Source: Cyanidioschyzon merolae
Taxonomy: Eukaryota
Length of the DNA: 64,000 nt
Direction: 5' to 3' (one strand)
Assembly (NCBI GenBank): GCA_000091205.1
Contig: AP006501.2
Below, in pieces: positions 11,854-56,290 of the stretch; position 1 is the first letter of the stretch; each line of letters starts with the position of its first letter. The notes beneath the pieces were generated by a model. It made no database searches. It saw only the letters and a list, made by a program, of their open reading frames with translations, and had not been told where the DNA came from. The translations under genes were made by a program, and so were the position numbers.

Positions 11854-12948
11854 ATGTCTTCCACTCACGCCAGCTTACAGGTTTCAGAGGATTCAGTGAA
11901 GAAGCCCCTGGTGGTGGAGCGTGGTAAAGATTGCGCCCCCTCAAGGCCGAGTCTCTGGAGGCGGCTCGTACAGCACGGCAGCGCAGAGTACGTCACCGTA
12001 GGGAGTATGTGTCTTAACTTTTTCTCCTCTACTTGTATTGTGGTCGCGAACAAGTACGCGATGGATTCCCTGGGTTTTCGTTATGGATCAACTCTTACGC
12101 TCTTTCACTTTATCTGTACCTCAGCGCTTCTATACGTCAGTTCGCGCTGTTTTGGCCTGTTTGAACGAAAGCCGTGCGAGCTCTACAAGGTGGCAAAGCT
12201 CGCTGCTGGCGCTGCGGGCTTTGTCGTGCTGACCAACCTCTCCCTTCAGTATAACTCTGTGGGCTTCTACCAAGTCATGAAAGTGATGACAACGCCGACA
12301 ATAGTCGTGATCGAGGCTCTCTTTTACCAGAAGCAACTGGAGAACCGGCTGAAGCTAGCACTGACCCCGGTCTGTCTCGGGGTGGTGCTGACGACCGCTA
12401 CGGACTTTCGACTCAACCTGCACGGGACGCTGATTGCCTCCGCTGGTGTTATTGTAACATCCTTGTACCAGATTTGGTCTGGAACGATGCAAAAGACGTT
12501 GCAGTTGGATGCCCTCCAATTGCAGTACTACACGTCGCCTATGAGTGCGCTTTTTCTGCTGCCTTTTGTACCGCTCATGGATAATTGGCGGCCTGGAAGT
12601 CCCGATAGCATCTTCGCCTATGCATTCACACCATATCGCCTGGGAGTGATTCTGATGACGGGCGTGCTGGCATTTCTCGTGAACATCAGCATCTTCATGG
12701 TCATCGGACGGACCAGCCCTGTCACCTATAATGTTCTTGGGCACGCGAAAACCGCAGTCATTATATCCAGCGATTTCCTCTTCTTTGGTCGTCCAAGAGA
12801 TCTCCGAAATTTCGCTGGCGTGCTGCTCACCATGATCGGTGTGGTCTGGTACACGCATTTGAAGCTCGAAGACCAGCGTTCTGACGCCAAGTCAAAGGTG
12901 AATGATTCATCTGGATCGATTTGCAAGGCGAGCACTGCGAGTCCATGA
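11854..12948 (+). CDS. nucleotide-sugar / triose-phosphate translocator family transporter (TPT, SLC35-like, DMT superfamily)
   Basis: The ATG start is verified at 11854. There are about ten hydrophobic helices. The run 'NKYAMDSLGFRYGSTLTLFHF ... VLTNLSLQYNSVGFYQVMKVMTTPTIVVIEALFYQKQ ... TSLYQIWSGTMQK' matches the TPT/EamA-type nucleotide-sugar transporter pattern. Confidence 0.7.
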   Translation: MSSTHASLQVSEDSVKKPLVVERGKDCAPSRPSLWRRLVQHGSAEYVTVGSMCLNFFSSTCIVVANKYAMDSLGFRYGSTLTLFHFICTSALLYVSSRCFGLFERKPCELYKVAKLAAGAAGFVVLTNLSLQYNSVGFYQVMKVMTTPTIVVIEALFYQKQLENRLKLALTPVCLGVVLTTATDFRLNLHGTLIASAGVIVTSLYQIWSGTMQKTLQLDALQLQYYTSPMSALFLLPFVPLMDNWRPGSPDSIFAYAFTPYRLGVILMTGVLAFLVNISIFMVIGRTSPVTYNVLGHAKTAVIISSDFLFFGRPRDLRNFAGVLLTMIGVVWYTHLKLEDQRSDAKSKVNDSSGSICKASTASP

Positions 12949-17195: not shown

Positions 17196-18377
17196 ATGGT
17201 GCTAAATATACCTCGGCCGTTGAGCAAGGTTGCGGGTCCGCGGGAGATTGTTCGTCAGTTCGTGCCGAGCTGGTTTGCAGTGACCATGGGTACGGGGATC
17301 CTGGCGGTAGTCATTAAAGACTTCCCGTTCCAGTTTCCGCACCAAGACGACCTCGGCTGGGCGTATTGGTTCTTTAACGTCGGATTGTTTGGGATCTTTT
17401 CGATTCTCTTTCTGAGCCGATGGATTTTTTTCTTTAACGACGCCATCCCAATGTTCCATCATCCTGTTCAATCCATGTTTCTTGGCGCTATTCCAATGGG
17501 TCTTGCAACAATCGTTAACGGGTTGGTGCTCTTTGGCACGCCGCACTGGGGCAACAGTGCAACGATAGCGGCCATCGTGCTTTGGTTTGTGGATGTGGGC
17601 CTCGCGGTCCTTTGTGGGCTGCTTGTTCCGATATTCATGCTCACGACACATTCGCACGCTTTGGAAAGCATGAGCGCAGTCTGGCTTCTACCAGTGGTTC
17701 CTGGCGAAGTCGCAGCGGCCTCTGGAGGTCTCCTGCTCGCGGTCGTTCAGAACCAGCGGCTTGCTCAGAATATTGCGTTCATCAGCATGCTCTTATGGGG
17801 ATTTTCGGTCCCGCTCTCAATGAGCATTTTGGTGATATTCTTCTTGCGTCTCGTACTGCACAAGCTACCGCCATCAGATCTAATTATTAGTTGTCTCCTT
17901 CCGCTGGGCCCGATAGGTACCGGGGCGCTAGCTGCCACCGAACTGGGACTCTACGCGAAGCGCACCTTTGAGAACAGCGGTTATGGCGTCTCCGCGACAA
18001 CTTTCCAGAGCTTGGCCTCTGCCACCCCGGCAATTGCCATGTTCGTTGCTACTGCTTTGTGGGGCTATGGCGTCTGGTGGCTGGTGATTGCCATTTTTGC
18101 AATCGGGCACACGCTAAGAAACCGACTACCATTTAATCTGGGATGGTGGGGTTTGATCTTCCCTCTGGGCGTGTTCACTGCATCAACAGCAGATCTTTAC
18201 AAATTAACGGATTTCTATCTGTTTCGCATACCAGCAGCGGTGCTTATATGCATCCTATTCGTGCTGTGGTGGGTTGTTATGTTCCACACGGTGGTACGAG
18301 CTTATTCAGGGGAGTTATTTTATGCACCGTGCCTTGGACCACGACAGGCTTGTACGCAAAACGAGCTTGAGATTTGA
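17196..18377 (+). CDS. TDT-family transporter (tellurite-resistance / C4-dicarboxylate / Mae1 / SLAC1-like anion transporter)
   Basis: The ATG start is verified at 17196. There are ten predicted TM helices. 'FVPSWFAVTMGTGILAVVI' near the N-terminus and repeated 'WW..I.PLG' blocks are characteristic of the TehA/Mae1 family. Confidence 0.65.
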   Translation: MVLNIPRPLSKVAGPREIVRQFVPSWFAVTMGTGILAVVIKDFPFQFPHQDDLGWAYWFFNVGLFGIFSILFLSRWIFFFNDAIPMFHHPVQSMFLGAIPMGLATIVNGLVLFGTPHWGNSATIAAIVLWFVDVGLAVLCGLLVPIFMLTTHSHALESMSAVWLLPVVPGEVAAASGGLLLAVVQNQRLAQNIAFISMLLWGFSVPLSMSILVIFFLRLVLHKLPPSDLIISCLLPLGPIGTGALAATELGLYAKRTFENSGYGVSATTFQSLASATPAIAMFVATALWGYGVWWLVIAIFAIGHTLRNRLPFNLGWWGLIFPLGVFTASTADLYKLTDFYLFRIPAAVLICILFVLWWVVMFHTVVRAYSGELFYAPCLGPRQACTQNELEI

Positions 18378-21048: not shown

Positions 21049-23367
21049 TTAACGCCATTGAATGATGCTTAGACCGTCTCGAATAGGCAAAATGACCTGC
21101 GTAACGCGTGCATCTTCCAGTACGTGTTGGTTAAAGGCATGAACCGCGTCCATGAGCTTCCGACTGCGTAGCGCGATGCGCTCTGCATGTTCGCCAAATT
21201 CAACATCCTCCATTTGGGCGTGTTTCTGCTTCCCGTAAACAGGCCGAAACAGAACATTATCGACAAGCAACGCACCATTCGGAGATAAGAGTCTATGATC
21301 CAGGATGAAATCAAAGTAGGTGATGTACCGGCGCTTGTCAGCGTCGAGATATATGAGATCAAAAGGCGCAACAGCTTGGTCGCGGAAGCGCTCCAGTACA
21401 TCCAAAACGGCGCCTCGGTGCAGCTCAATAGGCGCCAGCTGACCAGCAACACATTTGAAGAACTGCTCGGCGGTGTCTGCAGCGTTGGGGTCCTGCTCAA
21501 CCGTCACCACAGTTTGGACGTGGTTCGGACCCATGGCGCCAGCAAAACACAACGTTGCATAACCGGTAAACGTGCCCAGCTCGAGCACACGTTGCGCTCG
21601 CAACAGCCTAGCGACCGCGTGCAGGACGGCACCTTGGACAGGTCCACTCATCATGTGCGCGGCTTGCGGGAACTTGCGATGCGTCTCGGCCGCGAGCTCC
21701 CGCAGGATTGGTGCTTCGGTACCCCAGGGAGCGGTGCGGCTCATGGTCTGTGCGTACCAGTGCAGCTCATTGCTAGCGCTTGCGAGTGCAAGCTCGAGAC
21801 CTCGCTGGCACTCGGGGCTACAGCATCCCGAGAGCCGGTGGCGACAACGTGCGCACTGGATCATCCGTCGATGGCAAGGTACATGCGCACAGTGCAAGAC
21901 GTCCAGTGCTGGGGCACTGCACGTTTCACATCGGCTCAAAATATCATTCGTCACCGGGGTTTTGAGGCGTTCATCGAATACATAGATGGATCCTTTGAAT
22001 TTGGGATCCCATCCTTGACGATGCGCCTCTGCGGCGTACGAAACGACGCCGCCGGCAAGTCGCTCCACGCGTTGAAATCCGAGGCGGTTCTCCAGATAGG
22101 CAGCTGCTTTGACACAGCGAATTCCGCCTGTGCAAAAAGTGAGTATCCGTCGATCTCGAGGCTCGTTTGCTAGACGCGCCTCAAGCGCTTTCCAAGTCTC
22201 CCGGTAGGTGCGGGTGTTCAGGGGGCGAGCCTCAGCGCTCCCGAAAAATGTTCCAAGCTGCGTCTCGTAATCATTCCTCACGTCGATCAGAATGGCGTGC
22301 GGGTCTTCCAAAGCCTGATGCCACTCTGCCGGGCTCAGCTCTCGACCAGCTTGCGTCAGATCAAGCGGCTCCTTGAGACCGTCAGCGACGATTTTCTGCC
22401 GACAACGGATATGTAGGTTACGAAACGGAGGCTGTGCAGCGAATTGAGCTGCCGACAGCAACTGTGGATCCAAGTTCAGATAGACACCAGCGAGTTCAAC
22501 CAGGTACGGAGACTCGGCTTCGAGCAACCGCTTCAACGCGTCGAGGCTACGCAGAGGAACTGCGACCTGCGCGTTGATGCCCTCCGGTGCTATGTAGATG
22601 CGACCGCGAATCGCCAGTGGTTTCAGGTAGAAACGTAGACGAGAGGCGAGCTCTTCCGGCTCTGCAATGGGCACAAAGCGATAGAATGAAAGCATTTGGA
22701 TATCTTCGTCTACGGCATCGAGCTCCTTGGCTGGATAAAATGGCGGCAACATCCGTGCCCGCTGCCGTTCTCGTACCCCGTCGGTGTTTCGGGGCCGCTG
22801 TCGAAACTCCTCTATCATAGAATCGCTGATTTGCGGGTCGAAACGCAGATACAGAGGGGCTTTGGCTTGCCAAGCCTCTTTTAACAGTGCATCAGAGTCA
22901 ACGAGCTCCAGCGAGTCTGGCCTGTGTGCAACAAGGACAACGTGAAGCGGTGTGCCCTCGAGTCGTTGCAGCGCTGAGAAGCGTTCCCATATCCCTTTTC
23001 GAAGCAATTCAAGACTCGGCTCGGTTCCGGGAACAAAGATGCGTCCTTTCCGGTCACTGGCCGCCACCCGAAGAGCAGCTCGTAGTTGCGGTGCTAAATA
23101 GACCCGAAATACCCACTGGGCACCCTGGAACTCGCGTTCTGGTTCACGAGTGCTTCCGGTCACATAAGCCAGATCCGGCACGTTTGCTGATAGGTGCCGA
23201 AGCACGCTCCGCTGCGACCGGCGACGGCATGCGGCGACCTTGAGACCTCGCCGAAACGCAAAACAGAAAGTTTTCGAAGGCGAACTTGTCCAGAAAGCGA
23301 CGGGTTGTGCGAAAGCGACTGCCTTCAACTGTGTACACGGCGACATCCACAGCATGAGCAAACGCAT
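21049..23367 (-). CDS. fusion protein: N-terminal extension, then TrhO/YceA-type rhodanese-domain tRNA U34 hydroxylase, then class-I SAM-dependent O-methyltransferase (Methyltransf_3 / TrmR / catechol-OMT type)
   Basis: Residues ~215-520 match E. coli TrhO end to end: 'SFYRFVPIAEPEEL ... IRGRIYIAPEGINAQVAVP', 'IRCRQKIVADGL', 'ILIDVRNDYETQLGTF', 'ILTFCTGGIRCVKAAAYL', 'GGVVSYA', 'KGSIYVFDERL' and a C-terminal Cys cluster. Residues ~560-772 are an O-methyltransferase: 'RVLELGTFTGYATLCFAGAM', 'FDLIYLDADKRRYITYFDFILDHRLLSPNGALLVDNVLF' (compare CCoAOMT 'FDFIFVDADKDNYINYH ... GGLIGYDNTLW'). The ATG start is verified at 23365-23367. Confidence 0.8.
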   Translation of the reverse strand: MRLLMLWMSPCTQLKAVAFAQPVAFWTSSPSKTFCFAFRRGLKVAACRRRSQRSVLRHLSANVPDLAYVTGSTREPEREFQGAQWVFRVYLAPQLRAALRVAASDRKGRIFVPGTEPSLELLRKGIWERFSALQRLEGTPLHVVLVAHRPDSLELVDSDALLKEAWQAKAPLYLRFDPQISDSMIEEFRQRPRNTDGVRERQRARMLPPFYPAKELDAVDEDIQMLSFYRFVPIAEPEELASRLRFYLKPLAIRGRIYIAPEGINAQVAVPLRSLDALKRLLEAESPYLVELAGVYLNLDPQLLSAAQFAAQPPFRNLHIRCRQKIVADGLKEPLDLTQAGRELSPAEWHQALEDPHAILIDVRNDYETQLGTFFGSAEARPLNTRTYRETWKALEARLANEPRDRRILTFCTGGIRCVKAAAYLENRLGFQRVERLAGGVVSYAAEAHRQGWDPKFKGSIYVFDERLKTPVTNDILSRCETCSAPALDVLHCAHVPCHRRMIQCARCRHRLSGCCSPECQRGLELALASASNELHWYAQTMSRTAPWGTEAPILRELAAETHRKFPQAAHMMSGPVQGAVLHAVARLLRAQRVLELGTFTGYATLCFAGAMGPNHVQTVVTVEQDPNAADTAEQFFKCVAGQLAPIELHRGAVLDVLERFRDQAVAPFDLIYLDADKRRYITYFDFILDHRLLSPNGALLVDNVLFRPVYGKQKHAQMEDVEFGEHAERIALRSRKLMDAVHAFNQHVLEDARVTQVILPIRDGLSIIQWR

Positions 23368-23612
23368 GAGAAGAGAACGTGTCTCGGAGACCCGATACCT
23401 CCCGTGTGTCTAGACGGAAGCCGTACCCCTGTTTCCCTTAAGCGCCGGTGCACGCGAACTCGTACCGAGTCGAGGCAACGACCAGACAAGCCGAGGTGCC
23501 GGTACGCTTTCACCAGCCTGTTCCGAGCTCCGAGTCCAATCAGTGCAGAAAACTTTTACAACGGCGTTTCGTTACCCTCTGGGCAGTGCAGGTGCCACGA
23601 AATGAAGGAACT

Positions 23613-23614
<2 letters not shown>

Positions 23615-23647
<33 letters not shown>
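23615..23647. repeat. (CAG)11 microsatellite
   Basis: A perfect cag x11 run lies in the intergenic region upstream of the TrhO-OMT gene. Confidence 0.9.
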
Positions 23648-23650
<3 letters not shown>

Positions 23651-26579
23651 AGTATGTCGCGGTGTAAGGTTCGCGGAAACGCGAGCCTGAGGCAGTCGGT
23701 ATCCGCCGTCGAAGAGTTGGGTCCAAGCTTATGTGCGATACCTGCAGGTTCTGTGAGAAACTTCCTCCAACGCTTGTTTGTGTTTCTATAGCATCGGAGC
23801 TGCGAACCAGAGTCCAATGGATATGTGGATGCTATCTATACCCAGAGGGAGGTTTCCGATGTTCCGCAGACGCCTCCGGAACGCACCTACCCGTAGAACA
23901 ATCGTCTTCTCGAGGGGTGCGCGTTGAACGAACTGGCAACCGTCCCTGCGCCGAGCCTAACACCGGCTCTTGAAGCGGTGCTAAAAACTGCCTCCAAGTA
24001 CCTGGTGCCGTCACCTGGGAAGTAGCACGGCGAGCAATGCTCTTAGCCGCCACTATCACAAGAGGAGCGCACTTGATACTGCTAGGTTTTGTGCGTGCAC
24101 GAGCCAGTTGTCACAGCAAACTGCATACGTTTATGCGGTACCCCGTCTGAAGAAGCCCTGCAAGATAGCTCTGGGTTCAGATGCCTATCGCCGAGGTCCT
24201 CCACATGCAGTAAAGCTGATTCGGATAGAAATCAGCCCGTGCTACGCCCGTGGCGGTTTGAAATAGAAGCAGCTCCATCTTGTGCACCTGGACCTAATCG
24301 CTAAACTTTCGGTCTCTTCCCAGCGTCACAAACAGCAGCCCCTGCGAGCGTTGGCTGCGACTGCATCCTTTTCCTCTTTCTCGTATTCGGCACGAAAGAC
24401 GTCGGCCAATCTTTTGCCTCAAGGTGCATTGCCAGCAGTCGAAGGGCCGTGATAGCAGCATTCAAGTGTCAATTTCGTAGCTTCCCGCGGTTGTCTACAC
24501 ATCTGAAATGCAAGCGGATATTGCGCTTGACGAATCTTTGTCGTAGGCAGCCGAGGAACGCCCCTCGCAAAGGGTAACACTCGACTGTGGTCAGGCGCTC
24601 CTAAATATCCATCGAACCTCTTGATGTTCCGATTACCGCCCAGTTTTGCACGTAAACGGTTGGTTCATCGCCGGATACATGCCTTGGGCTGCTACAGATG
24701 GCTCTCAGCGATGCTCTCCTCGGTATTCGGGCACGCTGTCGTGTCCTTCGATCATGGGCTTCTTCTAAGTGGTCCCCAAGGTGCTGTCGCTGTCTGTTGT
24801 ACAAGAAAGCGAACGGAGCCTCATTGAATACAGGATTTGTGGCACGGCACCTTGTTCATCATGGACCAAGTACCGGATGGTTAAATATATTTTTCGGAGA
24901 ACAAGTTTACAAATTTCGATGCTTCTACGCAGCCTCTACCCACGGCTGTGACGCATTTTTCTCCAGAAGCAATCGTAGTGATCACTGAGGGCAGAGTGCA
25001 AGACCCTTTTGCATGCAAACAAAAGAGACGATATCGTCTGGAAGTATATCTTGTGACAGGTATCGAGTTGCGGTCGACAACTGTTTCTTGAATGCACACA
25101 AAGAGAGAAGGGTTTCTTTTTAGAACGAACTCTACTATTTGAGGTGAAAGGTTCAGCGAACTTTCAACAAGATCTTGCGAGCAAGACTTCAAAGGACGAA
25201 GTCGAGTACTTTTCATTATATATCCAGCGACGTGAATCGCTCCACCGGAGAGTTGCCCTGAGACAGGAGGATCCAAAACTTGAGCGATACGTGATCGAAT
25301 ACGCAGCAAAATAGGGAAAGGAGAAACGCACAGGCTGTAAGAATGAAATCGGACCATGATAATAGCGGTTACACGAACTCTTGTTTGCGAGCATCGCAAA
25401 TCATCTTGCTAATGACGGTGACGTAACGAAATCCAACGCAAACGCGTCGAATGAGCCAACCAGAAAAGTGCGGCGGAGAATCCTGAAACCATACATGAAT
25501 CCATACGCCCCTCTCCCTCCAGTTCGATTTTCGAGGCTTTGCATCACAGAAAATAACTCAGGGGAGACTCGAAACGCAGGAACAGAACGACAAGCTGAGT
25601 GTTCTATTCTCGTCCGACGCAGGTGGTACCACGTGCATGAAGCACACAGGTCGGAAGCTGTCGCTTCATGGACAAGTGCCCGTGAATGCGCCAAGAGGTT
25701 TTGCCACGCACGTACAAATATATTTTTATCGTATGGAATTCAGCACCAGTAGTTCCGCATCAGCACACATAACGCTGGCCAATGTTTCCGAAATGTGTCT
25801 ATACCACTGCATTGAGCAACACCAAGCCTTCTCTCTGGGTTCATCCATGCTCAGTGCCAATTCAATACTCTGGGAAAGAAAGTCTGGGCTCGCTTCAGCC
25901 AGAGCACAACTGGCGATCACCGGTCGGATATCCTAGCTTCAGTTGCGCGTGACGCCACCTGCCGGGGCACTCGCCAAACATGGCTACCTAGTGCACCCTC
26001 TTGCAGCAAATGCTCATCACACTTTGATGTATTCGCAAAATACCTCGTTCATAGCCTCGCTTCGCATAGAATGTCGGTCTTGGTCGCTGCCGGCGTTTAG
26101 CCTACTGAAATGTTTGCAGTATCGCCTGAGGCTCGGATCGACCAGGGCGCCTACCTTCCGTTCGGATACATTCCCGCGAAACGGATACGCACGCGGGGCC
26201 AGCACATGGTACACCTCTTCATTGGTGGATGACAAGCAAAAGCCCCGATCGCCAACCGACCATGCATTCCACACAGACACTTTTGTAAAGGAGTGATGCG
26301 GCGTGCAGCGCTCTTCCGAACAGCCACCTGTGTGCCACGCGCCGTGCCGCAACGGTACGCCTACCGACGTGCAGACGCTCCGAGTATAAGCCAGCGAACA
26401 CGAGTCCCGATTCTGCGTCTGATGAATGACACCTCAACTGGCCGCCCCCAAAGATATTTTGAAGTGCCAATATATCTCCGTGTTGTGTCTGCGCATCGAC
26501 GCTACAACTATGATTATCACGGACATTTACGGGCGACACGACGCACGGTGCAACGTACGCAGTGATAGGTTTGTACAAC

Positions 26580-30083: not shown

Positions 30084-31580
30084 TCAGTGGGGTACTGCAC
30101 CAGTGGGATCCGGCGGATTCGACTCTTGTCTATCGTATTGATGAAAGGCGCCCTCTCCGATGAGCTTTTGCGCAAACAGATGATCATAGATACGATACGC
30201 TTTCTTGTCGTCAATACCGAGCAACAGGCGTACATCTTTTCGACGGACAGCGCCTGTGCGAGCGTTCTCGCGCAAGAGGATCTCTTTGCACACCAGGTAC
30301 TGGTGCGGCGAAAGTCGCAGACCAGCACAGAGCTCGGTCTCACTCCTTGTCAAGAGTTCGATGCCATCCGTACAAAAGAGCTCTGGTCCAGACTGGCGTC
30401 GGAGACTGCTCACTTGCCCATTCCAGTACGCATACAGATCAATGCCGTTCACTTTCAGCACGCGTTCACGAATTTGCTCGGCATCCGGTCCCGTGAGCGC
30501 ACCATGTACTCGCTGCAGCAGTTCTTCTGAAGGCAACAGTCGACGACCGACCCCTGGGGTAAGTTTTGAAACGTCCACAAACGCTGCTGCCGCTGCCAGC
30601 TGCGTCGCCTGCAACTGCACTCGAGCTTGATAGAGCGCTTCGATGCGCTCTCGCAAATGGCGTTCACGAAGCATCCCTAACAGAAGATCTTCGTGAATTT
30701 GAGGGTTGAGCGAATGCCGAAAAAATGGTTTCGAGTGCTCCCAGAGGTCACGCAGATCTGGACTCATGGCTTTCTCTACACGACTCTTAGCCTTCAGGTC
30801 ACAGAAACCAGAACCCAGGGCGAAGCGTTTGCGCTCGACCCGCTCATCGAGGCAGTGATTGTAGATCTCCATGACGCGGGTCTTGAGTTCAACGTCACGA
30901 GCGTTTTCCGTGCGTTCGATTTCCATGTCTGCCACGATTTCCTCCCTTTCGTTATCCCATTCGTAGATAAAGTCACCACGCTTCGGCATGTATCCCGACA
31001 TTTCATCAATGGTGTACTCGTGCATCACTTTGAGACTTTTCGGGTCTGGCTCGGGTAGCTCTTGAATTTCTTGGGTAGCAGGTCGCGGCAGCAATGTTGG
31101 ACGAAAGATATCCGCGATTCCTGTTGGTGTGGCCTCCAGGTAAACACGCGTATAATGCAGTTCTGCGTAGCGTGCATTCTTGCCGCCTCCGATCATGGTC
31201 GAAACATCGGACCAGTTGCCGATGCCGTAGTATTCGAGCGCTTCGAGGAGACGTTCCTCCTCAGCACCCGTCCAGCTCTCTTCGAAAACGTCCACATCTA
31301 CGACCTCCAAAACTCGGTAATCGTGATTGGAACGATGATCATCAGTTTCTGCTCCGATGGAGAAACAGTCAATACAGAGGTCGTACTCGACGCAGACCGC
31401 ACATCGAATGCGGACGGTGTCTGAGATATCCCGAGCGCAGTTGTTACAGTGGTATCTGCCTGAAGTGCTCGTTACCGGTTGTTTGGATGACTTGCGAGCA
31501 CCTCCGCGACGTTTTCGGGAGCGTTTCACATCGATATCCGCAACGTCACTGCTAGCAGAGTGCCCTGCAGTGGAGTCCAT
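30084..31580 (-). CDS. ADA2: transcriptional adaptor ADA2 (ZZ zinc finger, SANT, SWIRM)
   Basis: The ZZ finger is 'YHCNNCARDISDTVRIRCAVCVEYDLCIDCFSIGAETDDHRSNHDYRV'. The SANT domain is 'WTGAEEERLLEALEYYGIGNWSDVSTMIGGGKNARYAELHY'. The C-terminus is SWIRM-like. The ATG start is at 31578-31580. Confidence 0.85.
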   Translation of the reverse strand: MDSTAGHSASSDVADIDVKRSRKRRGGARKSSKQPVTSTSGRYHCNNCARDISDTVRIRCAVCVEYDLCIDCFSIGAETDDHRSNHDYRVLEVVDVDVFEESWTGAEEERLLEALEYYGIGNWSDVSTMIGGGKNARYAELHYTRVYLEATPTGIADIFRPTLLPRPATQEIQELPEPDPKSLKVMHEYTIDEMSGYMPKRGDFIYEWDNEREEIVADMEIERTENARDVELKTRVMEIYNHCLDERVERKRFALGSGFCDLKAKSRVEKAMSPDLRDLWEHSKPFFRHSLNPQIHEDLLLGMLRERHLRERIEALYQARVQLQATQLAAAAAFVDVSKLTPGVGRRLLPSEELLQRVHGALTGPDAEQIRERVLKVNGIDLYAYWNGQVSSLRRQSGPELFCTDGIELLTRSETELCAGLRLSPHQYLVCKEILLRENARTGAVRRKDVRLLLGIDDKKAYRIYDHLFAQKLIGEGAFHQYDRQESNPPDPTGAVPH

Positions 31581-32366: not shown

Positions 32367-32829
32367 TTGCCAAGACTCTTCTAAGGAATAGGTGACTGCG
32401 ATCAGCAATAACGCTAACGAAAAGGCGTGTGGCTCGAGTTAACCAAGATCAGCAAGCGTCCTTTTCACGGAGTAGGTGCGTGCTATTACCAGCAACGTTA
32501 ACTAAAAGGCGTGTGCTCAGGTTTTGCAACGGGAAACGCGTTGCCTTTCCCGGGAACTTCGAGAACGCGCTCAATAACGTCTGAGGAAAGCACATTCGTT
32601 TCTGCGGGAGAAGCGTCACACTTACGTCGTTCTCGTTTCCGTCGGTGCCAGAACAGAGAGGAACCTCGTGAAACGAGATCGGCTTCCTATTCATACTCAA
32701 AAGCTCTGGTCCCGTGTACACATACGAGGGCTCAAGCAGCTCACCAAGGCGTCTCTCTGGACCGCTCAACGTGCGACGGCCTCCGCACTGCCTGCGTTGC
32801 CACCAGCACTCAACATCTGTAACGGTGCC

Positions 32830-35800
32830 ATGTGCCCAGAGACAGCTACGCCTCCGCAGGACGCCACTGCTGCGGCCGCATCGGAGACCTCGGGACCCCG
32901 AACGGGCTGCTGCTCCACAAGCCTGCAACATATGCCGCCCGGGCAGCAGCATGATACATATCTCTGTCGTTCGCAAATCATACCACTCCTGGAATGGATC
33001 GAGAGCGTCTCGGATTGTATGCTTGGAAACGCGAGTGGTAACCGCGTGGACGGCTGCTGCCCAAAGGCGACGGATGTGAACACCAGTCCCGCACCTAGAA
33101 TACCTGATGCGAAAGGCGGGTATCAACGAATCAAAAGCAATTCCTTGACATCAGAAGCGCTGTGCACGGCTCTCCATGCCCTGACAGAGGCTCGAACTCC
33201 AGCTGCCTTCCATGCCTGCACTCGACAAGCTTTTGGCAAGCTCATTGAAACCACGAGAGCGTATGTCGTAAGCGATACTCGTGAGGCGCCCGCGAACATG
33301 TTAGAACTTTTGCTCGATGTACTTTTGCTCACGGAGGTGGTTCTGTTTGGGAGCAATCTCATCTCCTCCTCGTTGCAGTGCACCTGGGTTACTTGGCTCG
33401 ACCGGTGGCTCACCGTCTGGTTGGAACGCTGGGCCGCGGTACCGCGAAACACGGACGCTAGTGCTGCTGTGCGCCAGGTATACCAGCAAGCACGGTTGAG
33501 AGACGTGCTTTACGCATGCGAAACTGTCGCATCTGGTGCATGTCAAACGGGAAAGAACCTAGCATTCGCTTTCGAGCGTTTGTCGTTACATCGAGCTGCT
33601 GGGGTAACCTCGCACGTATCGGGTACGGTGCATCAGGCAGGGTTGGTGACTCATGCCCTGTTGCATCCCGACTCCAAAACATCTCCGAGCGGCACGACGC
33701 TTCCGGGAAGCGCAGCGATGCTGGGTATCGAAAGCTGCCGCTCGTTATTGACGACTCAGGAGCCGCTTACGTCAAGCAGCAGCGGAGTCAGGCATTGTTC
33801 CACGGGCCGTGCTTCCGATTCGTGCTCGAATGCACACGAAGCACCAGCTACTAGAGCAGATGCGCACATGCTATTGCACGACGAGTTCCGGCAAGCCGAA
33901 GTTGACCTGGTTCGAGAATCCGCTGGCAACCATGCGGTAATACCTGCTCCGAACGCGCTTACGTCCACCTTGAGCACGCAGCAATCTACCACGGACGACG
34001 CTCGGAGCGGCTTTGTCTCGACCTGTGCCGTAGGAGCACTACCGCCGTCGTCGCCGACGTCGTCGTCGTCGTCGTCGACACCAACACCTCAACAGGAGGC
34101 GATATCCGCAGCGTGTGCTGCAGCACCAGCCGAGAGCGCTTGTGCACTGGATCATTCAACGCGAGCGAGTGCCTGGATGTGGCTTTTGGTTGTTCTTGGG
34201 CACCTGAGAGGCCCGCAGTCGACACCGTTTCCAATCGAAGATGATAGAAATGAGGCCGGTGTCTTGCTCTGGATGGCCTGCCTGGAACCGGTACAACTCC
34301 GCGGCCTCTACGCGCTCAGCAAGAGCAGCATCTTCCGCGATGCTCTGCATCAGCATAAGAACTGGAATGAGTACGTTCCTCTACTGGTTCATGCCTCACT
34401 GCGGGAGTATGAAGCATTGCTCGCTGCGCGTTGTCGCCTAGAGCCATTCACAGTGGAGACAGCCATGGCCGAAGCTTCCACGCAGTGGAGGCTCCCTCCT
34501 GAGCTGTGCGATGACGTTGCTCGCTGTGCTTGTCGTCTTGCGAGTGAAGTGACTGGCCCAAGCAGCGTGCCGGTGCTTATGTCGCTGCTCTGTAACGAAA
34601 CTGTGCCTCGAAGCGTCAGCTGGAACGCGGCAAAGTCCCTGGCGCTGCTCGACATTCGAGACGGCATAGCACCGTGGCATCGTCTGGAATGTCAGCGTCT
34701 GACTGCCTTCAGTCAGCTCGCTTATCTGCGGAGCAGGCTCGAGCATGACACCGAGGCTACACGAGAACTGCAAACAGGAACGGAGGAGGCCTCAGCGGTC
34801 TCTGCAGATTCGACAGAGGATCCCAGTGTACCAGGAAGGGCACTGGCTACTGTTGCCCGCGCTGCTGATCCTGCTGATGCTGGTGCTTCTTCAGAGGCGT
34901 TTTCCAGAAAGGAGCCGCAGCATTCCTGTTCCTGGCTCGCCAGTGCGGCACAGACGCTCGAGCGACTCCATCACGAGCATCCCACAGACCGTACGCTTCG
35001 CACGGTTGCAGCGGAAACACTTGCTTTGCTGGTAGAAAGAATTCCAGGTCAGCGATATGCCGAAGCGTTACTCCTGCGGCTGTTGATGGAGAGCACCGAT
35101 CTTCCGGATCGCTTCTTTCAACAAAGCATTCAGAAAATGCATCGAGAGACGCTGGTGAGCGCCTGTACGTTGCCGATGCTCCAACAGATCTGGAGCAAAT
35201 GCTGCAGCCTCATGCCCTGTCACTTTCGCTTCCTCCGTATCATGGTCCAGGAAAACGGTGTCGATGCGATGCACGAAACTGCAGACGAGCTGCTGCAGCG
35301 GGCGCTCTTGGCATTGAATGACCATTCCATGATGTTGGTCAAGAGCGCTCTCGGCTTTCTGGAGGCTTGGTACCTCGCGGAGAAGCGTTTGCGAGCGAGA
35401 GGCGCGTCGATACCGACTTCGCGTCTTCTTGTCCGGATTGGTTGTTTCCTCCAGGAGTTTCTTGCTCGGAGTCCAGCGGAGCGCTATGTGTCCGCATCCA
35501 GACTGGGCGTCACGCTACTTCCGATGCTGCTGCGACACGGTGCTACCGTTCGGGAGCTCTGGGAGTGCCTCTGCGGGGCGCGTGACCCCAGAGAAGGCTC
35601 CCTGGAAACCACGACGGGCGCTCCACAGGTTTCTGGGAAGCACTGCGATTCTTCGGCTGATAGAACGCACGAGCACCAGCACCAGCATGAGCAAGTGCGG
35701 GAACGCTTCCATCGTGTCTTGGAAGGGAGCACGCTGCCGTACTTGTTGCTGCTGGTGACGGTCGCGCTCGTGCGAGCACGTGTCGTCACGCGCGTCGAAC

Positions 35801-38800
35801 TTGTTGTTGTTGATGATGTCGAGAGCAACATCGGCGCAACTGAGTATCAAGTTTGTGGCGAGCATCGCCAACATTATCTTACAGCACCCAAGCACGCTGC
35901 CCAGTGCCTTTTTGTGCCGCAATGGCTTGCCCAGTGGGCGCTCGCGCACGCCGAGGACACCATCGCCCTGGATGCCTTGTATCTTCTCACGCAACCGAAT
36001 GTTCTGACGACTGCACCTATTCCATTAGGGCATCTGCAGCTACTGCTGGAGGCATTGCCAGCCTTGACTGTAGGCACGCTTGCACCGAAATCGACGCAGA
36101 TGTTGCGTCAGTTCTTCATCAAATACATGGGTCCAGCTTGCCAGGCGCTGGTGCAGGGCTCTGGCTTCTGGGCGAGCGTCGGCTTCCTGCCAGGTACGGA
36201 CTCGGCTGCGCAGGTACCTGACGCCGAGAGCTGGTCTGCCAAGCGTTCCGGTACATTGTCGAGAACGCGACCGGAGGAAGCCTTAACGAAAGCGGATGCA
36301 GAAGCTGCAGCAGCAGAAGCAACATTCCTGTCCCAGACTCGAGATGTGAACGTATCAGCAAAAGCAACGGCAGCAGCGGGGCCAGGCACGGCACCGGGAA
36401 TGCAAAATGCCTCTGCTGTTGATATTGAAAGTAATGAAGTCATTTCCAGCAACCGCGATCTTTACGCTATACAGCTCGTGCGTTTTCTCAAGAGCTGGGT
36501 CCGTTTGCTGACGCTTCAGATCGGGCCTGGGGTGGGCCTGACCAGACGCCTCGCGGCAATATCTCTCTTGGAATCACTACCCGTGCAAGTCTGGCGATTC
36601 GTGGAGCACCAGTGTCCGCAACATATCCGTATCATGGAGGACTGCATCGCTGTCGCACTGGGGTGTCTTCTGGATCCCTATGACAGCATCCGGGTGCGGG
36701 CATGGGCGTTGCTTCGTAACCTTGCAGCCTACGCTGACCTGAACACGGTGATGAGGGTGCTCGTACCTACGGGGTCTGTTCTGGTACGTTCCTGGACGCG
36801 CAGGAAAGCGGACTCGGGAGCGCTTCTTCTGCGGACAGCTGTCATGTTCATGGACAAGGCTGCGAGCCCCAGGGCCTTGGGCAAGCTTGATGTTTCCCGC
36901 ATATCACTGTGCAACGGGGTCGGCACACCAGCACAGGAGGCTCCCTCGCGAGTTACGCTACTGGAGGCACTCGCTACGATCCTTGCAAACGTTGACATCA
37001 AAAGGCATGGGGTCGTCCTTACCCTGCGGTATTTGCTGGACGATTGTATGGATTCGGCAACGGGGCGATGGATCCAACCTCCCAAACCCAGTTTAGCCTC
37101 GTTGACGCGTCTGAGTCAGGCGTGCATTACCTTAGAGGAGCGCTGTTCCGCTCTATTCGCTACTCAGCACGATGGTTATGAGGCAGCTCTGCAGACGGAC
37201 CCGCTTTCTGAGGACGAAGCGTTTGCGTCTACGGCGTCAGCGGAAGACACCCAAGACAGAGCCCATTGGGAAAACCAAACGAGCAACACCTCTCTAGTTG
37301 CTTCTGCAGAATTGGCGTACGATGCCGACGCAGAGGAACGCGTAAGCGACGACTCTCAGGCAACCTGCGCAGAGTTTGCGCGACGCAGCACGCAGCACGG
37401 CGTCTTTCTCATCATCAGGGAGATTTGCTATATCACCAGCATTATCATCAGACTTCTGTTGGATGAATTTCATCCTGAGGAAAGCCTGGATGAGGCTTTC
37501 GTGGTTCCAAGTACCGCAGATTGGGTAGTAGGCGCTGCGGTATCGGTATCGCCGGCTACTGTTGCCGCTCTGGTCGAGTTTCTCACTGATTTTCTAGCGG
37601 GAATGCTGTTGCGCTATCGACATAGTGGTATTTGTGGCCACGCGTCGATCTGTTGGCGGTCTGTCTGCAAGCAGTTGGTGAAGCATACCGACCCAGCGCT
37701 GCGGGCGCTTCCCAACCGGTGTCTGGACCTCATTGTACAACGTCTGCACCACGGAGGTTTCGCTGTGCTGCGGCGCTCGGCAGGGCTTGCTTACCTTGTC
37801 CAGGGTGTCGTTGCGGCTTCCGCGAATTCTCCCTTGGATGCACTTGTCGATGTGCTCTTGCGGATGGCTCGCTCCTGGTGCGACGGGCAAGCGCTTGGCA
37901 GTGTGCATGCGATGCACATCCTTCGTGCGCTCCTGCAGGACGCATCCTTGACGCAGCGCACTGCACATCTCGTGCCGTTGGCGTTCCAGGTGGCTCTAGA
38001 CGGATTCCAGGGCACTGCTCCGTGGATGATTCGTAACGCTGCGCTGCTTCTGTTGGCTGCCTGCATCCAGCGTATCCTAGGTGGTCAAATCGTCCAGGGC
38101 GCCACGGCATTCCGCGTGACAAACAAGACGAACAGAAGTCATGAACAGGGAAGCTCGGAGCGCACACTGCACGACTTGCCTGGACTCCAGACTCGATCAG
38201 GAGCCCGAACGCGTATAACTGATACCAATACCCAGGCGTTTCGTCTCGAAGCGTACTGGGAAGAGCCCCTGGTGCTCGTCCAGTCTCGCGCACTCACCAT
38301 GGATGTTTTCCTTTCGCGCTACGCCGGAATCCTGGAGTCGTTGTGTCGTTTACTGCAGCAAGCGGCGGCGTCGACAACGTCAGCTTCTGTGCATCCTGGT
38401 GCTTTGACGGCTGTGTATCCAGTTCTTGTGCTGCTGTCGCGGTTAGCGCCCTTGTCGACGTCCACCGACGAGTTGGGCGATGGCGCTGCTTCATCCGCTG
38501 TCGCTTTTCCTGATCGACCAGAGGCGTTGTGCTTTAGCGGTCGCCGCTCTGTTCTTCGAATTCTGCTGGAGGCTGTAGAGCGTCTCACTGTCAGTGCTGA
38601 GGGTGCCGTTCGCAGGAAAGCCGCGCTCTGCTGGGCTAGGATCTGGCAAACCTGCTGCAGTGCGGATGCAGCTCCATGCCTGTGGCCGGACGATAGTACC
38701 GATGCTGCCGCTGTTCAGGGGATTATCTTGCGGCTTCGCTATTTGCAGGCCGTGGGCGCATGCCCATCCAGTGTTCGGGAGGCCTTTCAGAAACGTTTCA

Positions 38801-53941: not shown

Positions 53942-56290
53942 TTACCCGTCACCGCGCATTTTTCTCATATTGATTGCGGAGTTAAAGTCTCGGTTCACGA
54001 AATCCATTCGTTTCTTGCCATCACTGGATGTACTTACTACGGCAAGTTGTCCGAGAACTTTCGCCCTCCTTTCCATTTGCTCTTCTGTCAGCGCTCCGTA
54101 CTTTGCTATTTCCTCAGGGCTCCTCTGGCACTTTTCCATCTTCACTCTCTGAAGTGTACAACCCAGCTCATGGTGAGTATAGGACGTTCGAAACTCCTCT
54201 ACCCGTATCATAACGAAACGACGTGCGCACTCCTTGTACACCCTCGTCGTTGGAGCTAGCGTAGTTCCTTTTTGGGTCTTCCAGCGCCCTGCTCGATACG
54301 CTACTACGAGCCTCTGACTGTCATCCTCCATCAAGGCACTCAGCTGATTGAAAAAATTCGCGACCGCCCGCTGCTTCCCACAATACAAATTCATTCGCAA
54401 ACGAGCCCACCGGGGCTTGGTATACTCTTTCCACAGCGTATCCCAGTGCGCCATGCGAACTTCCATGACTTTCCGAAAAGCTTCAAAGTCCGCTCCTCGG
54501 CAAGTCACCTAGCTCCAAGCTTCCAGGTGATCTTTCATTCCTGAAATCCATGTCTCGATTTTCTTCCTCGCATTCATGATTCCCGAGTCTTGATAGTATC
54601 TCCCTCTCGAGAACCTCAAAAGACGCATGTCTTTCTGACGTAAGTTACCATCAGTACCATCTTCCGCACGCTTCAATGCTGCGATGGTAATGATATTCGT
54701 ATTCCCAGGGTCCGCGCCAACGACAAAGTCGTTATCTAGCACTCTCTGGGTCGCAGGGCCCACCTTCTTGTCTTCTTCATGCTTCACCGCGTCAACGACA
54801 AGGTCTTTATCCTGCATTTCCTGCGTCGTAGAATCCGCCTTCTTCGCATCTTCATCCTTCGCCGCGTCAACGATAAAGTCGTTATCCTCCACCGCCTGCG
54901 TCGCAGGACCCGCCTCTTGGTTTTCTTCATGCTCCTCTGCGTCAACGGCAAGCTCGTTATCCTCCACCTCCTGCGTCGCAGGACCAGCCTCCAGCTCATC
55001 TTCATCGTTCGTCACGCCAACGACAAGGTCGTTATAATGCACCTCATGCATCGCAGGATCCGCCTCCTACTTTTCTTCAGCCCTCGTTCCGGGCGCAGCC
55101 GATGGAGGGACTGGACGATCTTTCTTCAACCGTCGATAGTGTACGCACACGGTTACTCCATCGGTTTCGATCATCCCAGTGAGCTACTTTTGCTTGCTCG
55201 TTTTGAGACGTTTGAAACCGAAGATATTCTTCCAGTACGTCTCCCGGTTTTCGCCGGTGAAGTGCTCCCTACTAATATTGAACTCCGCACTGATCTCCTT
55301 TATGATGCCGTAAAGGACCGCGGAGTCGATCGTCATAAAATGAGCCTTGATGTTGCACAACGGAACGACATTGAAGCACTCACCCAATAGGAAAGCCTTC
55401 CGTCTCTCCCATTCTTCATTTTTCCTCACTCAGCTTCATCTCCGCTTTGCGTTCGAGCTCTCGGCCCAGAAACACAAAATACCGCCGGAAGATGCGATAG
55501 TATCTTTCCTTATCTTTTTTCAACTCTGATATCTTGTCTGTTGGATTCACCAGCCCCAAGACTGCACGATGCTCTTGTATAGCCGCACGGGTTACAGATA
55601 CTTCATTCGTGCTCCTTTTTTGACGTCTTCTTGTCGACGAATTCGACGTAATCTTCATGCTGGCGATCTTTCGTGATGCCACTGATGATCGACCATATCC
55701 CCTTGCGAGAGATGCCCGGGTTGAGTGCAAACGCGGTGCGTATCATGAAACATGCGAGGTTCTCTGTCAAATGGTTCTTCAGGTTCGTGATGTACTTCAT
55801 TGCCCCATATGTGTAAATATGCGAGTCACCCCTGCGCCGAGCACCCTCGAAGCGGAATACCGCGAAGTTTTCGTGGAGAGTATGCATTAGCACATTTTCC
55901 CTCCACGTTCCCGCTGTACCATGCATCAGGTATCGAAAAGACGTCTTGTCGAAGAACTCGCCCGGAATCTCGACCGTTTCCATCTGCGTCATTTGTTCGT
56001 ACATCTCCCTCGCCAAATGCATCAGTCCGGAAGACGCCTTGGCAATACTCTTGGAGTACGAGTCGACATGCTTTCTGATAGCGTCTCGCAACTTTTCCGT
56101 ATAGGGATGCTTGATATGTCCAAGAAGAGAGGTTTTCACCACTATCTCGTGGTACAGTTGTCGTTCTTGCAGCCTTCGACGTAGGGCCTCCCATTTTGCT
56201 TCTTTTTCTTTTGCTCTTCGTCGGGACTCGGCACTGTATTTGTTTTTCTGGCAGCCGGCGACAATGGCGCTTCAGGATCGTGGACTTGCT
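53942..56290 (-). pseudogene. decayed TnpB/Fanzor-like RuvC nuclease gene (transposon-associated), interrupted by frameshifts and in-frame stops
   Basis: The remnants lie in order on the minus strand. RuvC-I is 'VVGADPGNTNIITIAA' (54509..55051). RuvC-II is 'FVMIRVEEFRTSYT' and RuvC-III is 'DFVNRDFNSAINMRKM' (53942..54508), with a degenerate H/C cluster between them. An in-frame TAG at 54509-54511 separates the two ORFs. Further TAGs at 55067-55069 and 55184-55186 fall in the same frame. Upstream pieces sit in two other frames (55603..56142, and a short ATG ORF starting ~56290). Whether the N-terminal region is also TnpB-like is not established. Confidence 0.4.
54716..55090. repeat. 75-bp tandem repeat x5 encoding acidic 25-aa repeats inside the TnpB-like pseudogene
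   Basis: Units start at 54716, 54791, 54866, 54941 and 55016, an exact 75-bp period. They encode '...GPATQ.VEDN.F.VDA..DED.KK...' on the minus strand. Confidence 0.75.

What the first reader, a model, noticed from the sequence alone, without database searches (positions are those of the whole stretch)
21049..23367. Single-polypeptide fusion of a TrhO-type tRNA U34 hydroxylase with a TrmR-type O-methyltransferase, a predicted one-protein mo5U34 pathway
In bacteria the ho5U34 precursor is made by the rhodanese-family enzyme TrhO (YceA). In Bacillus-type organisms it is then methylated to mo5U by TrmR, a catechol-OMT-family (Methyltransf_3) enzyme, as a separate protein. Here both domains occur in order in one 772-aa eukaryotic ORF. 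There is also an unassigned ~200-aa N-terminal extension that may be a targeting or regulatory region. This fusion would be a Rosetta-stone link between the two steps and predicts xo5U-type wobble modification in this alga, plausibly in an organelle. A THADA/Trm732 homologue (position-32 Nm cofactor) lies ~10 kb away, but that is probably coincidental. I cannot verify from sequence alone whether this architecture has been described.
Basis: partly seen in the sequence, partly recalled or inferred. Interest (0 to 1): 0.8.

Follow-up and report, generated by a model that had tools for sequence, protein, structure and literature searches.

The report
Known TrhO–methyltransferase fusion, red-algal copy
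This red-algal gene really does join a tRNA wobble-uridine hydroxylase to an O-methyltransferase in one protein, but the same fusion in other species was already published in 2019 as the clue that identified the hydroxylase, so this is a further member, not a discovery.

Summary
Window 21049-23367 (-) is one uninterrupted 772-aa ORF, 100% identical to Cyanidioschyzon merolae 10D XP_005539069.1 ("hypothetical protein, conserved"). It contains a full TrhO unit above NCBIfam's TrhO equivalog cut-off, with every residue shown essential in E. coli kept, followed by a Methyltransf_3 domain with an intact metal triad.

The architecture is not new. Sakai et al. 2019 (PMC6599085) reported the yceA(trhO)-trmR fusion in Phytophthora and Phaeodactylum and used it as the guilt-by-association clue to discover TrhO. 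JGI already labels these proteins "sulfurtransferase/O-methyltransferase YrrM".

What I add:
- The fusion is shared by Cyanidiales, Pyropia and many ochrophytes.
- The "unassigned" N-terminus is a transit-peptide-like presequence plus a confident beta-grasp module with no Pfam match, found only upstream of TrhO in this family.
- Diatom orthologues carry plastid-type (ASAFAP-like) presequences.
- "TrmR-type" is only partly met. The domain scores higher against generic class-I OMTs than against Bacillus TrmR. The family keeps two of three TrmR-signature arginines; this protein keeps one.

Best reading: an organelle-targeted, probably plastid, two-step enzyme making mo5U34. No mo5U has been measured in this alga. 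Interest is low to moderate.

The parts
21049..23367 (-). Whole 772-aa ORF with its stop codon; identical to C. merolae 10D XP_005539069.1.
23125..23367 (-). Residues 1-81: presequence resembling a transit peptide. Residues 1-64 have no Asp or Glu, net charge +10 and 5 Phe. The region is predicted disordered.
   Evidence: composition. (pLDDT about 30). (only 28% identical to Cyanidiococcus, against 76-83% for the catalytic domains).
22792..23118 (-). Residues 84-192: conserved beta-grasp (ubiquitin-like fold) module with the motif LRxxLx(6)RKGRIFV. R109 is invariant and L95/R96 are more than 90% conserved. There is no Pfam model for it.
22702..22791 (-). Residues 193-222: linker containing LPPFYP, the counterpart of PPPPPPxYL in diatoms.
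   Evidence: (low pLDDT at 194-204).
22390..22698 (-). Residues 224-326: UPF0176_N (acylphosphatase-like) domain of TrhO. It includes R321 and R323, which correspond to E. coli K112 and R114 on the basic tRNA-binding sheet.
22030..22335 (-). Residues 345-446: rhodanese domain of TrhO.
22114..22134 (-). Residues 412-418: catalytic loop CTGGIRC, identical to E. coli TrhO C200-C206.
   Evidence: mutagenesis in Sakai 2019. (invariant in 25/25 fusions). (translation).
21805..21996 (-). Residues 458-521: Rhodanese_C Cys-rich domain. Eight cysteines are at least 90% conserved: C480, C483, C493, C498, C505, C508, C516 and C520.
21061..21717 (-). Residues 551-769: Methyltransf_3 (catechol-OMT-like class I) domain. 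It has the G598 SAM motif, E624, metal ligands D675/D703/N704, K678 and R734 (TrmR R178). Q625 and A629 sit at the TrmR R86 and R90 positions.

Best explanation
This is a nuclear gene for an organelle-targeted, most likely plastid-targeted, bifunctional tRNA wobble-uridine enzyme. After import and removal of the roughly 65-80-residue presequence, the TrhO unit (acylphosphatase-like + rhodanese + Cys-rich C-domain) uses O2 to hydroxylate C5 of U34 in tRNAs that read four-codon (NYN) boxes, giving ho5U34. The C-terminal Mg2+-dependent catechol-OMT-fold domain then transfers a methyl group from SAM to the 5-hydroxyl, giving mo5U34. Because both active sites sit in one chain, the intermediate need not be released. 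The conserved N-terminal beta-grasp module, with its invariant Arg-rich motif, is an accessory domain. I infer that it helps hold the tRNA or mediates self-association.

What is shown: the domain identities and the conservation of catalytic residues. What is inferred: the chemistry, the substrate tRNAs, the compartment and the role of the beta-grasp module.
For: TrhO half:
- The NCBIfam TrhO equivalog scores above its cut-off.
- The best PDB hit is 'tRNA uridine(34) hydroxylase' 9j5o at 5.8e-39.
- C200, T201, G203 and R205 are kept, as are K112 and R114 (as Arg). All are essential in E. coli and invariant in 25/25 fusion proteins.

Methyltransferase half:
- Methyltransf_3 at 1.8e-30.
- The metal triad D675/D703/N704 and K678 are invariant.
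- The fusion family has Arg at the TrmR R86 position in 49/56 members and at R178 in 53/56.
- The five best-scoring OMT structures have V, W, Q, Y and I at the R86 position. Genuine stand-alone bacterial relatives lack the R86+R178 pair.
- The domain is 76% identical to its Cyanidiococcus counterpart, against 28% for the presequence, so it is under constraint.

Fusion logic: the fusion is maintained in more than 50 species of red algae and ochrophytes. It was already accepted as a functional link by Sakai 2019.

Targeting: residues 1-64 have no acidic residue and net charge +10. Of 24 orthologues with a strongly hydrophobic N-terminal region, 18 have an AxA|F junction typical of complex-plastid presequences.

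Context: plastid tRNAs for Pro, Ala and Val (and possibly Ser and Thr) carry an unidentified U34 modification (PMC8877259).
Against: - No nucleoside data exist for this alga, and I found no paper reporting mo5U in red algae or diatoms.
- xo5U was reported as not found in Chlamydomonas.
- The methyltransferase domain is closer overall to generic or small-molecule OMTs than to Bacillus TrmR: 76-80 bits against 40 bits.
- TrmR R90 is Ala in 52 of 56 family members and never Arg. In this protein R86 is Gln and the SAM-contact D113 is Ala.
- Phytophthora has the fusion but no plastid, so the family is not strictly plastidial.
- For C. merolae itself, plastid versus mitochondrion cannot be decided from composition alone.
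- The AF2 inter-domain arrangement is unreliable (pTM 0.50), so intermediate channelling is conjecture.
Confidence: 0.65

Rival explanations
1. The chemistry is the same (U34 to ho5U34 to mo5U34), but the enzyme works in the mitochondrion or is dually targeted, rather than working in the plastid.
For: The C. merolae presequence is Arg-rich and free of acidic residues, which fits mitochondrial presequences as well as plastid ones. Plastid-less Phytophthora keeps the fusion.
Against: Diatom orthologues show a signal peptide followed by an AxA|F junction, which indicates plastid rather than mitochondrial targeting. The review read describes mitochondria as using unmodified U34 in quartet boxes.
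Confidence: 0.2
2. The C-terminal domain is not a ho5U methyltransferase. It would be a generic catechol or small-molecule O-methyltransferase, or it would methylate another RNA or protein site, and only the TrhO half would act on U34.
For: The best PDB sequence matches are TomG, SynOMT and OMTs of unknown substrate, not TrmR. The nearest genuine bacterial relative, an Olleya OMT, lies among kynurenine and aromatic-catabolism genes with no trhO nearby. TrmR R86 and R90 are not Arg in this protein.
Against: The fusion to TrhO is maintained across red algae and ochrophytes in a fixed domain order. The family has Arg at the R86 and R178 positions, which the generic OMTs examined lack. ho5U, with a 5-OH beside the 4-carbonyl, is chemically a catechol-like metal-chelating substrate; this last point is inference.
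Confidence: 0.1
3. The second step makes a different xo5U derivative rather than mo5U. For example, the domain might use carboxy-SAM to form cmo5U, or mo5U might be processed further.
For: The plastid U34 modification is reported as unidentified and 'different from cmo5'. D113, which contacts SAM in TrmR, is replaced in Cyanidiales.
Against: Known carboxymethyl transfer uses CmoB, from a different family (PF08003). The fold and metal site here are those of methyl-transferring COMT-type enzymes.
Confidence: 0.05
4. The long ORF is an annotation or assembly artefact that joins two genes.
For: None was found.
Against: The frame is continuous, and the reference genome carries an identical 772-aa model. 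More than 50 orthologues, including transcript-derived ones, have the same order. In intron-bearing species the apparent stand-alone OMT has the TrhO exon immediately upstream.
Confidence: 0.01

Closest known systems
yceA(trhO)-trmR fusion proteins of Phytophthora sojae, P. ramorum and Phaeodactylum tricornutum (Sakai et al. 2019, Nat Commun 10:2858, PMC6599085)
   Same: They share the two-enzyme architecture (TrhO followed by a Methyltransf_3 domain) and the functional inference. Diatom orthologues of the query with this architecture were retrieved directly.
   Different: This is a red-algal (Cyanidiales) member that the paper does not list. The paper does not describe the N-terminal beta-grasp module or the targeting signals. 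None of these fusion proteins has been characterised biochemically in any paper I found.
E. coli TrhO (YceA) / Legionella Lpg2838 (4f67) / 9j5o tRNA uridine(34) hydroxylase
   Same: The three-domain unit is the same, the CTGGIRC loop is identical, and the basic sheet residues are kept.
   Different: The bacterial enzymes stand alone. Here the unit is flanked by a beta-grasp module and an OMT and preceded by a presequence.
Bacillus subtilis TrmR (YrrM; PDB 5zw3/5zw4; Ryu et al. 2018, PMC6158493)
   Same: The Pfam family is the same (PF01596). D133/D159/N160, K136 and R178 are kept, and R181 becomes Lys.
   Different: Pairwise score is only 40 bits. R86 is Gln, R90 is Ala, D113 is Ala and M38 is Ser in this protein. 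Family-wide, R90 is never Arg.
Cyanobacterial SynOMT (Synechocystis, PDB 3cbg) and other class-I cation-dependent OMTs (TomG 5n5d, Coxiella 3tr6, 7cvu)
   Same: These give the highest overall sequence similarity to the OMT domain, at 75-80 bits. The EQDPNA motif after beta-strand 2 is almost identical to SynOMT's DQDPNA.
   Different: They are stand-alone proteins with no fusion to TrhO. They have no Arg at the R86 position, and SynOMT has no counterpart of R178. From my own knowledge, several of them act on small phenolic substrates in vitro.
[quoted passage not shown]
   Same: They are eukaryotic TrhO homologues.
   Different: They have no OMT domain and no beta-grasp module, and their function is untested.

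Membership tests
TrhO (oxygen-dependent tRNA uridine(34) hydroxylase) | Scores above the curated cut-off of the NCBIfam equivalog model NF001133. | tested here: met
   187.9 bits against a cut-off of 170, over residues 226-470.
TrhO (oxygen-dependent tRNA uridine(34) hydroxylase) | Has the rhodanese active-site loop CXGGXR, with the C200, T201, G203 and R205 that are essential in E. coli. | tested here: met
   C412-T-G-G-I-R417-C418, invariant in 25/25 fusion proteins.
TrhO (oxygen-dependent tRNA uridine(34) hydroxylase) | Has the basic beta-sheet residues K112 and R114 needed for activity. | tested here: met
   R321 and R323, invariant in the family. K112 is conservatively replaced by Arg.
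TrhO (oxygen-dependent tRNA uridine(34) hydroxylase) | Has the domain order UPF0176_N, Rhodanese, Rhodanese_C. | tested here: met
   Eight conserved Cys lie in the C-domain.
TrhO (oxygen-dependent tRNA uridine(34) hydroxylase) | Forms ho5U34 on tRNA in an O2-dependent reaction. | not testable with these tools
   This needs an enzyme assay or nucleoside mass spectrometry.
TrmR (tRNA ho5U34 O-methyltransferase) | Has a PF01596 class-I fold with a SAM-binding Gly motif and an acidic residue after beta-2. | tested here: met
   Methyltransf_3 at 1.8e-30. G598 is invariant across the family, and E624 is kept in this protein (Glu in 53 of 56 family members, Asp in 3).
TrmR (tRNA ho5U34 O-methyltransferase) | Has the Mg2+ ligands Asp133, Asp159 and Asn160. 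| tested here: met
   D675, D703 and N704, invariant.
TrmR (tRNA ho5U34 O-methyltransferase) | Has Arg86, Arg90 and Arg178, which Ryu 2018 reports as conserved specifically in TrmR orthologues and absent from other PF01596 members. | tested here: not met
   This protein has Q625, A629 and R734, so 1 of 3. Family-wide, R86 is Arg in 49/56, R90 is Ala in 52/56 and R178 is Arg in 53/56, so 2 of 3. S. aureus MW1564 (3ntv), a close TrmR homologue, also keeps only R86, so the criterion may be too strict.
TrmR (tRNA ho5U34 O-methyltransferase) | Is closer to characterised TrmR than to small-molecule OMTs. | tested here: not met
   40 bits against 5zw3 and 33 bits against 8k1f, compared with 75-80 bits against 3tr6, 5n5d, 3cbg and 7cvu. 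No phylogeny was made.
TrmR (tRNA ho5U34 O-methyltransferase) | Is linked, genomically or physically, to a ho5U-forming enzyme. | tested here: met
   It is covalently fused to TrhO in more than 50 species.
TrmR (tRNA ho5U34 O-methyltransferase) | Methylates ho5U34 to mo5U34. | not testable with these tools
   This needs an assay.
Beta-grasp / ubiquitin-like fold (PB1, CIDE-N, MoaD classes) | Has the beta-grasp topology. | tested here: met
Beta-grasp / ubiquitin-like fold (PB1, CIDE-N, MoaD classes) | Belongs by sequence to a named beta-grasp family. | tested here: not met

The most novel reading that the evidence does not exclude
The fused enzyme is imported into red-lineage plastids and makes mo5U34 on plastid tRNAs for the four-codon boxes. 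That would be the first demonstrated xo5U-type wobble modification in a eukaryote, and it would give an identity to the long-unidentified U34 modification of plastid tRNAs, at least in red algae and diatoms. The family-specific beta-grasp module would be a new tRNA-handling or oligomerisation domain that substitutes for the tRNA-binding arginines lost from the OMT domain.
Probability: 0.4. Interest if true: 0.55.

Novelty: new member of a known kind. Interest (0 to 1): 0.3.

Why it matters
The fusion has already done its main service, because it pointed Sakai et al. to TrhO. What remains open is whether any eukaryote actually carries xo5U34. Sakai et al. only suggested it, and a chloroplast review lists an unidentified U34 modification in quartet-box tRNAs.

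C. merolae is genetically tractable, and plastid tRNAs have already been isolated from it. This single intron-less gene is therefore a convenient handle for testing the question by knockout and tRNA mass spectrometry. The beta-grasp module and the partial loss of TrmR's tRNA-binding arginines also suggest that tRNA recognition has been redistributed among domains in the fused enzyme, which is a modest structural question.

Tried and rejected
1. Genomic linkage to the THADA/Trm732 ORF. The homologue is real, but the neighbours are unrelated nuclear genes and the window has no tRNA genes, so I rejected it as coincidence.

2. Using nearest stand-alone homologues to assign the OMT domain.
- The top few hits turned out to be gene-caller fragments of split fusions.
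- The genuine bacterial neighbours, Bacteroidota OMTs, have a small-molecule gene context, so this route gives no support for TrmR orthology.

3. Raw similarity to PDB chains as a test of TrmR against CCoAOMT. It is uninformative. B. subtilis TrmR itself scores about 58-65 bits against CCoAOMT structures (8gxo 64.7, 1sui 58.0), so the family is star-like. I used signature residues instead.

4. A search of the AlphaFold database with the beta-grasp model. The library was unavailable.

5. Literature searches for follow-up.
- Nothing was found for PDB 8k1f.
- No paper holds both TrhO and Phaeodactylum; Sakai 2019 was missed because it prints 'Phaeodatylum'.
- A full-text search for xo5U terms together with 'chloroplast tRNA' or 'plastid' turned up no report of xo5U in plastid tRNAs.

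7. The antisense ORFs inside the gene (21295-22173 + and others). I treated them as shadow ORFs of a GC-rich coding region and did not test them further.

8. The inter-domain geometry from the full-length AF2 model. I did not use it because pTM is only 0.50.
Full report
**1. The observation**

Window 21049..23367 on the minus strand is a single 772-aa ORF that starts at ATG. Its translation is 100% identical to Cyanidioschyzon merolae 10D XP_005539069.1 / BAM83033.1, annotated "hypothetical protein, conserved" (UniProt M1VM75, "Rhodanese domain-containing protein"). The window is therefore nuclear DNA of this red alga.

Pfam finds four domains in order, all above the gathering cut-offs:

| Domain | Residues | E-value |
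|---|---|---|
| UPF0176_N | 224-326 | 4e-21 |
| Rhodanese | 345-446 | 4.7e-08 |
| Rhodanese_C | 458-521 | 1.4e-15 |
| Methyltransf_3 | 551-769 | 1.8e-30 |

NCBIfam's TrhO equivalog model scores 187.9 bits against a cut-off of 170. Nothing matches residues 1-223.

**2. The TrhO half**

The best solved-structure match is 9j5o "tRNA uridine(34) hydroxylase" (5.8e-39), followed by Legionella Lpg2838. Sakai et al. 2019 showed by mutagenesis that C200, T201, G203 and R205 of the CTGGIR loop, plus K112 and R114 on a basic beta-sheet, are needed for ho5U34 formation. I mapped these positions on an alignment of 25 fusion proteins and E. coli YceA. I recalled the E. coli sequence from memory; its numbering reproduces the paper's.
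- The query has C412-T-G-G-I-R417-C418 and R321/R323.
- All of these positions are invariant in the family.
- Eight cysteines of the C-terminal Cys-rich domain are at least 90% conserved.

By every sequence criterion available, this half is a TrhO.

**3. The methyltransferase half**

The domain is a catechol-OMT-type class-I methyltransferase.
- The counterparts of TrmR's Mg2+ ligands (D133/D159/N160 map to D675/D703/N704) and of K136 (K678) are invariant in 56 fusion proteins.
- By pairwise score it is closer to generic OMTs than to B. subtilis TrmR. It scores 75-80 bits against 3tr6, TomG 5n5d, SynOMT 3cbg and 7cvu, but 40 bits against 5zw3 and 33 bits against 8k1f, "tRNA 5-hydroxyuridine methyltransferase".

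The criterion is weak, however. TrmR itself scores about 58-65 bits against caffeoyl-CoA OMT structures, so the family is star-like.

A sharper test comes from Ryu et al. 2018. [quoted passage not shown] I confirmed my B. subtilis TrmR reference sequence as identical to PDB 5zw3 over all 217 aligned residues and mapped these positions:

| TrmR position | This protein | Fusion family (56) |
|---|---|---|
| R86 | Q625 | Arg in 49 |
| R90 | A629 | Ala in 52, never Arg |
| R178 | R734 | Arg in 53 |

Controls:
- The five best-scoring OMT structures have V, W, Q, Y and I at the R86 position.
- The 120 nearest "stand-alone" proteins mostly have V/I, L and a gap at the three positions.
- The few stand-alones with both R86 and R178 look like fragments of split fusion genes. 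P0103's contig carries a TrhO exon just upstream, 46% identical to the query.
- A genuine bacterial neighbour, an Olleya OMT, sits among kynurenine and aromatic-catabolism genes with no trhO nearby.
- S. aureus MW1564 (3ntv), a close TrmR homologue from a species that has mo5U34, keeps only R86. Equating 3ntv with the S. aureus TrmR is my inference.

So the fusion family shares a partial, specific TrmR signature that its nearest relatives by overall similarity lack. Strict TrmR membership is not demonstrated, and least of all for the C. merolae protein.

The domain is not decaying. It is 76% identical between C. merolae and Cyanidiococcus, against 83% for TrhO and 28% for the presequence.

**4. 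The N-terminal extension**

It has three parts.
- **Residues 1-81** are variable and predicted disordered, with pLDDT about 30. Residues 1-64 contain no Asp or Glu, carry net charge +10 and have five Phe, which resembles a transit peptide.
  - 24 of 58 orthologues have a strongly hydrophobic N-terminal region. In 18 of those 24 it is followed by an AxA|F junction, e.g. SVASF|QPA, GASAF|QQR and IVTAF|SRT.
  - From my own knowledge, this is the ASAFAP-type signature of complex-plastid bipartite presequences. No dedicated predictor was run.
- **Residues about 84-192** form a conserved module (LRxxLxLSGREKRGRVF in diatoms, LRAALRVAASDRKGRIFV here). R109 is invariant and L95/R96 are more than 90% conserved.
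  - AlphaFold2 with a 26-sequence alignment gives a confident fold, with mean pLDDT 85 and values above 90 for 106 residues.
  - A profile search of 1.84 billion representative proteins found only 186 hits. Every hit long enough to judge has the order beta-grasp, TrhO, (OMT), and no other architecture appears.
- **Residues 193-222** are a Pro-containing linker (LPPFYP here, PPPPPPxYL in diatoms).

The module is thus an accessory domain dedicated to this fusion family. I found it in neither Pfam nor the literature I could search.

**5. Distribution**

The full architecture occurs in the following groups:
- Cyanidiales: C. merolae, Cyanidiococcus at 73% identity, and a more distant relative at 55%.
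- Pyropia.
- Many diatoms: Nitzschia, Seminavis, Thalassiosira, Amphora, Stephanocyclus.
- Phaeothamnion and Chrysophaeum, plus partial brown-algal models.

This pattern is consistent with red-algal ancestry and spread by secondary endosymbiosis, which is inference. Land-plant hits (STR7) lack the OMT.

**6. Comparison with what is known**

Sakai et al. [quoted passage not shown] They used this, together with linkage to cmoA in cyanobacteria, to pick yceA as the second hydroxylase. They also note that eukaryotic trhO homologues suggest xo5U-type modification in eukaryotes.

JGI's automatic annotation already reads [quoted passage not shown]. I found no paper that characterises any fusion protein or reports mo5U in red algae or diatoms.

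A chloroplast review records an unidentified U34 modification in plastid tRNAs for Pro, Ala and Val (possibly also Ser and Thr). It also says xo5U was not found in Chlamydomonas. C. merolae plastid tRNAs have been purified for mass spectrometry by others, so the prediction is testable.

**7. Mechanism and verdict**

The most likely reading (confidence about 0.65) is an imported, probably plastidial, two-step enzyme. The TrhO unit would hydroxylate U34 with O2, and the OMT domain would methylate ho5U34 with SAM and Mg2+ to give mo5U34. The beta-grasp module would assist tRNA binding or self-association.

Domain identities and residue conservation are shown. The chemistry, substrates, compartment and module function are inferred.

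The rivals are:
- mitochondrial or dual targeting;
- an OMT domain with a non-tRNA substrate;
- a different xo5U product;
- a gene-model artefact, which is effectively excluded.

The finding is real and correctly read in outline, but it is a new member of a known and published kind. The modest additions are the red-algal membership, the family-specific beta-grasp domain, the plastid-type presequences and the incomplete TrmR signature. Interest: 0.3.

Noticed in passing
window 32668-40839 (+): A 2723-aa ORF with THADA/TRM732 DUF2428 (4.2e-27) and Trm732 C-terminal TPR repeats. It is real but has no evident link to the TrhO-OMT gene.
   Followed up: partly
window 54712-55086: A 75-bp tandem repeat of 5 copies (74% matches), which would encode 25-aa repeats if it is coding. 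It coincides with a strong local GC-skew (-0.20) and AT-skew (-0.17) anomaly. Several overlapping ORFs of 180-203 aa lie on both strands.
   Followed up: partly
proteins P0079, P0082, P0083, P0085, P0086, P0089: Bacterial proteins (one source name says Pirellulaceae) fuse a TrhO unit to an RluA-family pseudouridine synthase domain (PF00849). This is another single-chain pairing of two enzyme types that would be expected to act on the anticodon loop. I did not investigate it.
   Followed up: no
proteins P0080, P0087: TrhO is fused to glutathione S-transferase domains in Acidovorax-type bacteria, and NCBI still names the protein TrhO. This may bear on the unresolved redox mechanism of TrhO.
   Followed up: no
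L001 2950-5642: The Olleya OMT closest to the fusion's methyltransferase domain directly follows genes for 3-hydroxyanthranilate dioxygenase and an ACMSD-like amidohydrolase. This suggests a role in methylating a kynurenine-pathway aromatic compound rather than tRNA.
   Followed up: partly
window 11854-12948 (+), 17196-18377 (+), 30084-31580 (-): The neighbouring genes are a triose-phosphate-transporter-family protein, a SLAC1-type anion channel and an ADA2-like transcriptional adaptor. They are ordinary nuclear genes unrelated to tRNA modification.
   Followed up: partly
window 23600-23667 (+ frame of ORF 23194-23667): A run that translates as 11 consecutive Ala (a GCN repeat) lies about 250-300 bp upstream of the TrhO-OMT start codon, in the presumed promoter or 5' region.
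   Followed up: no
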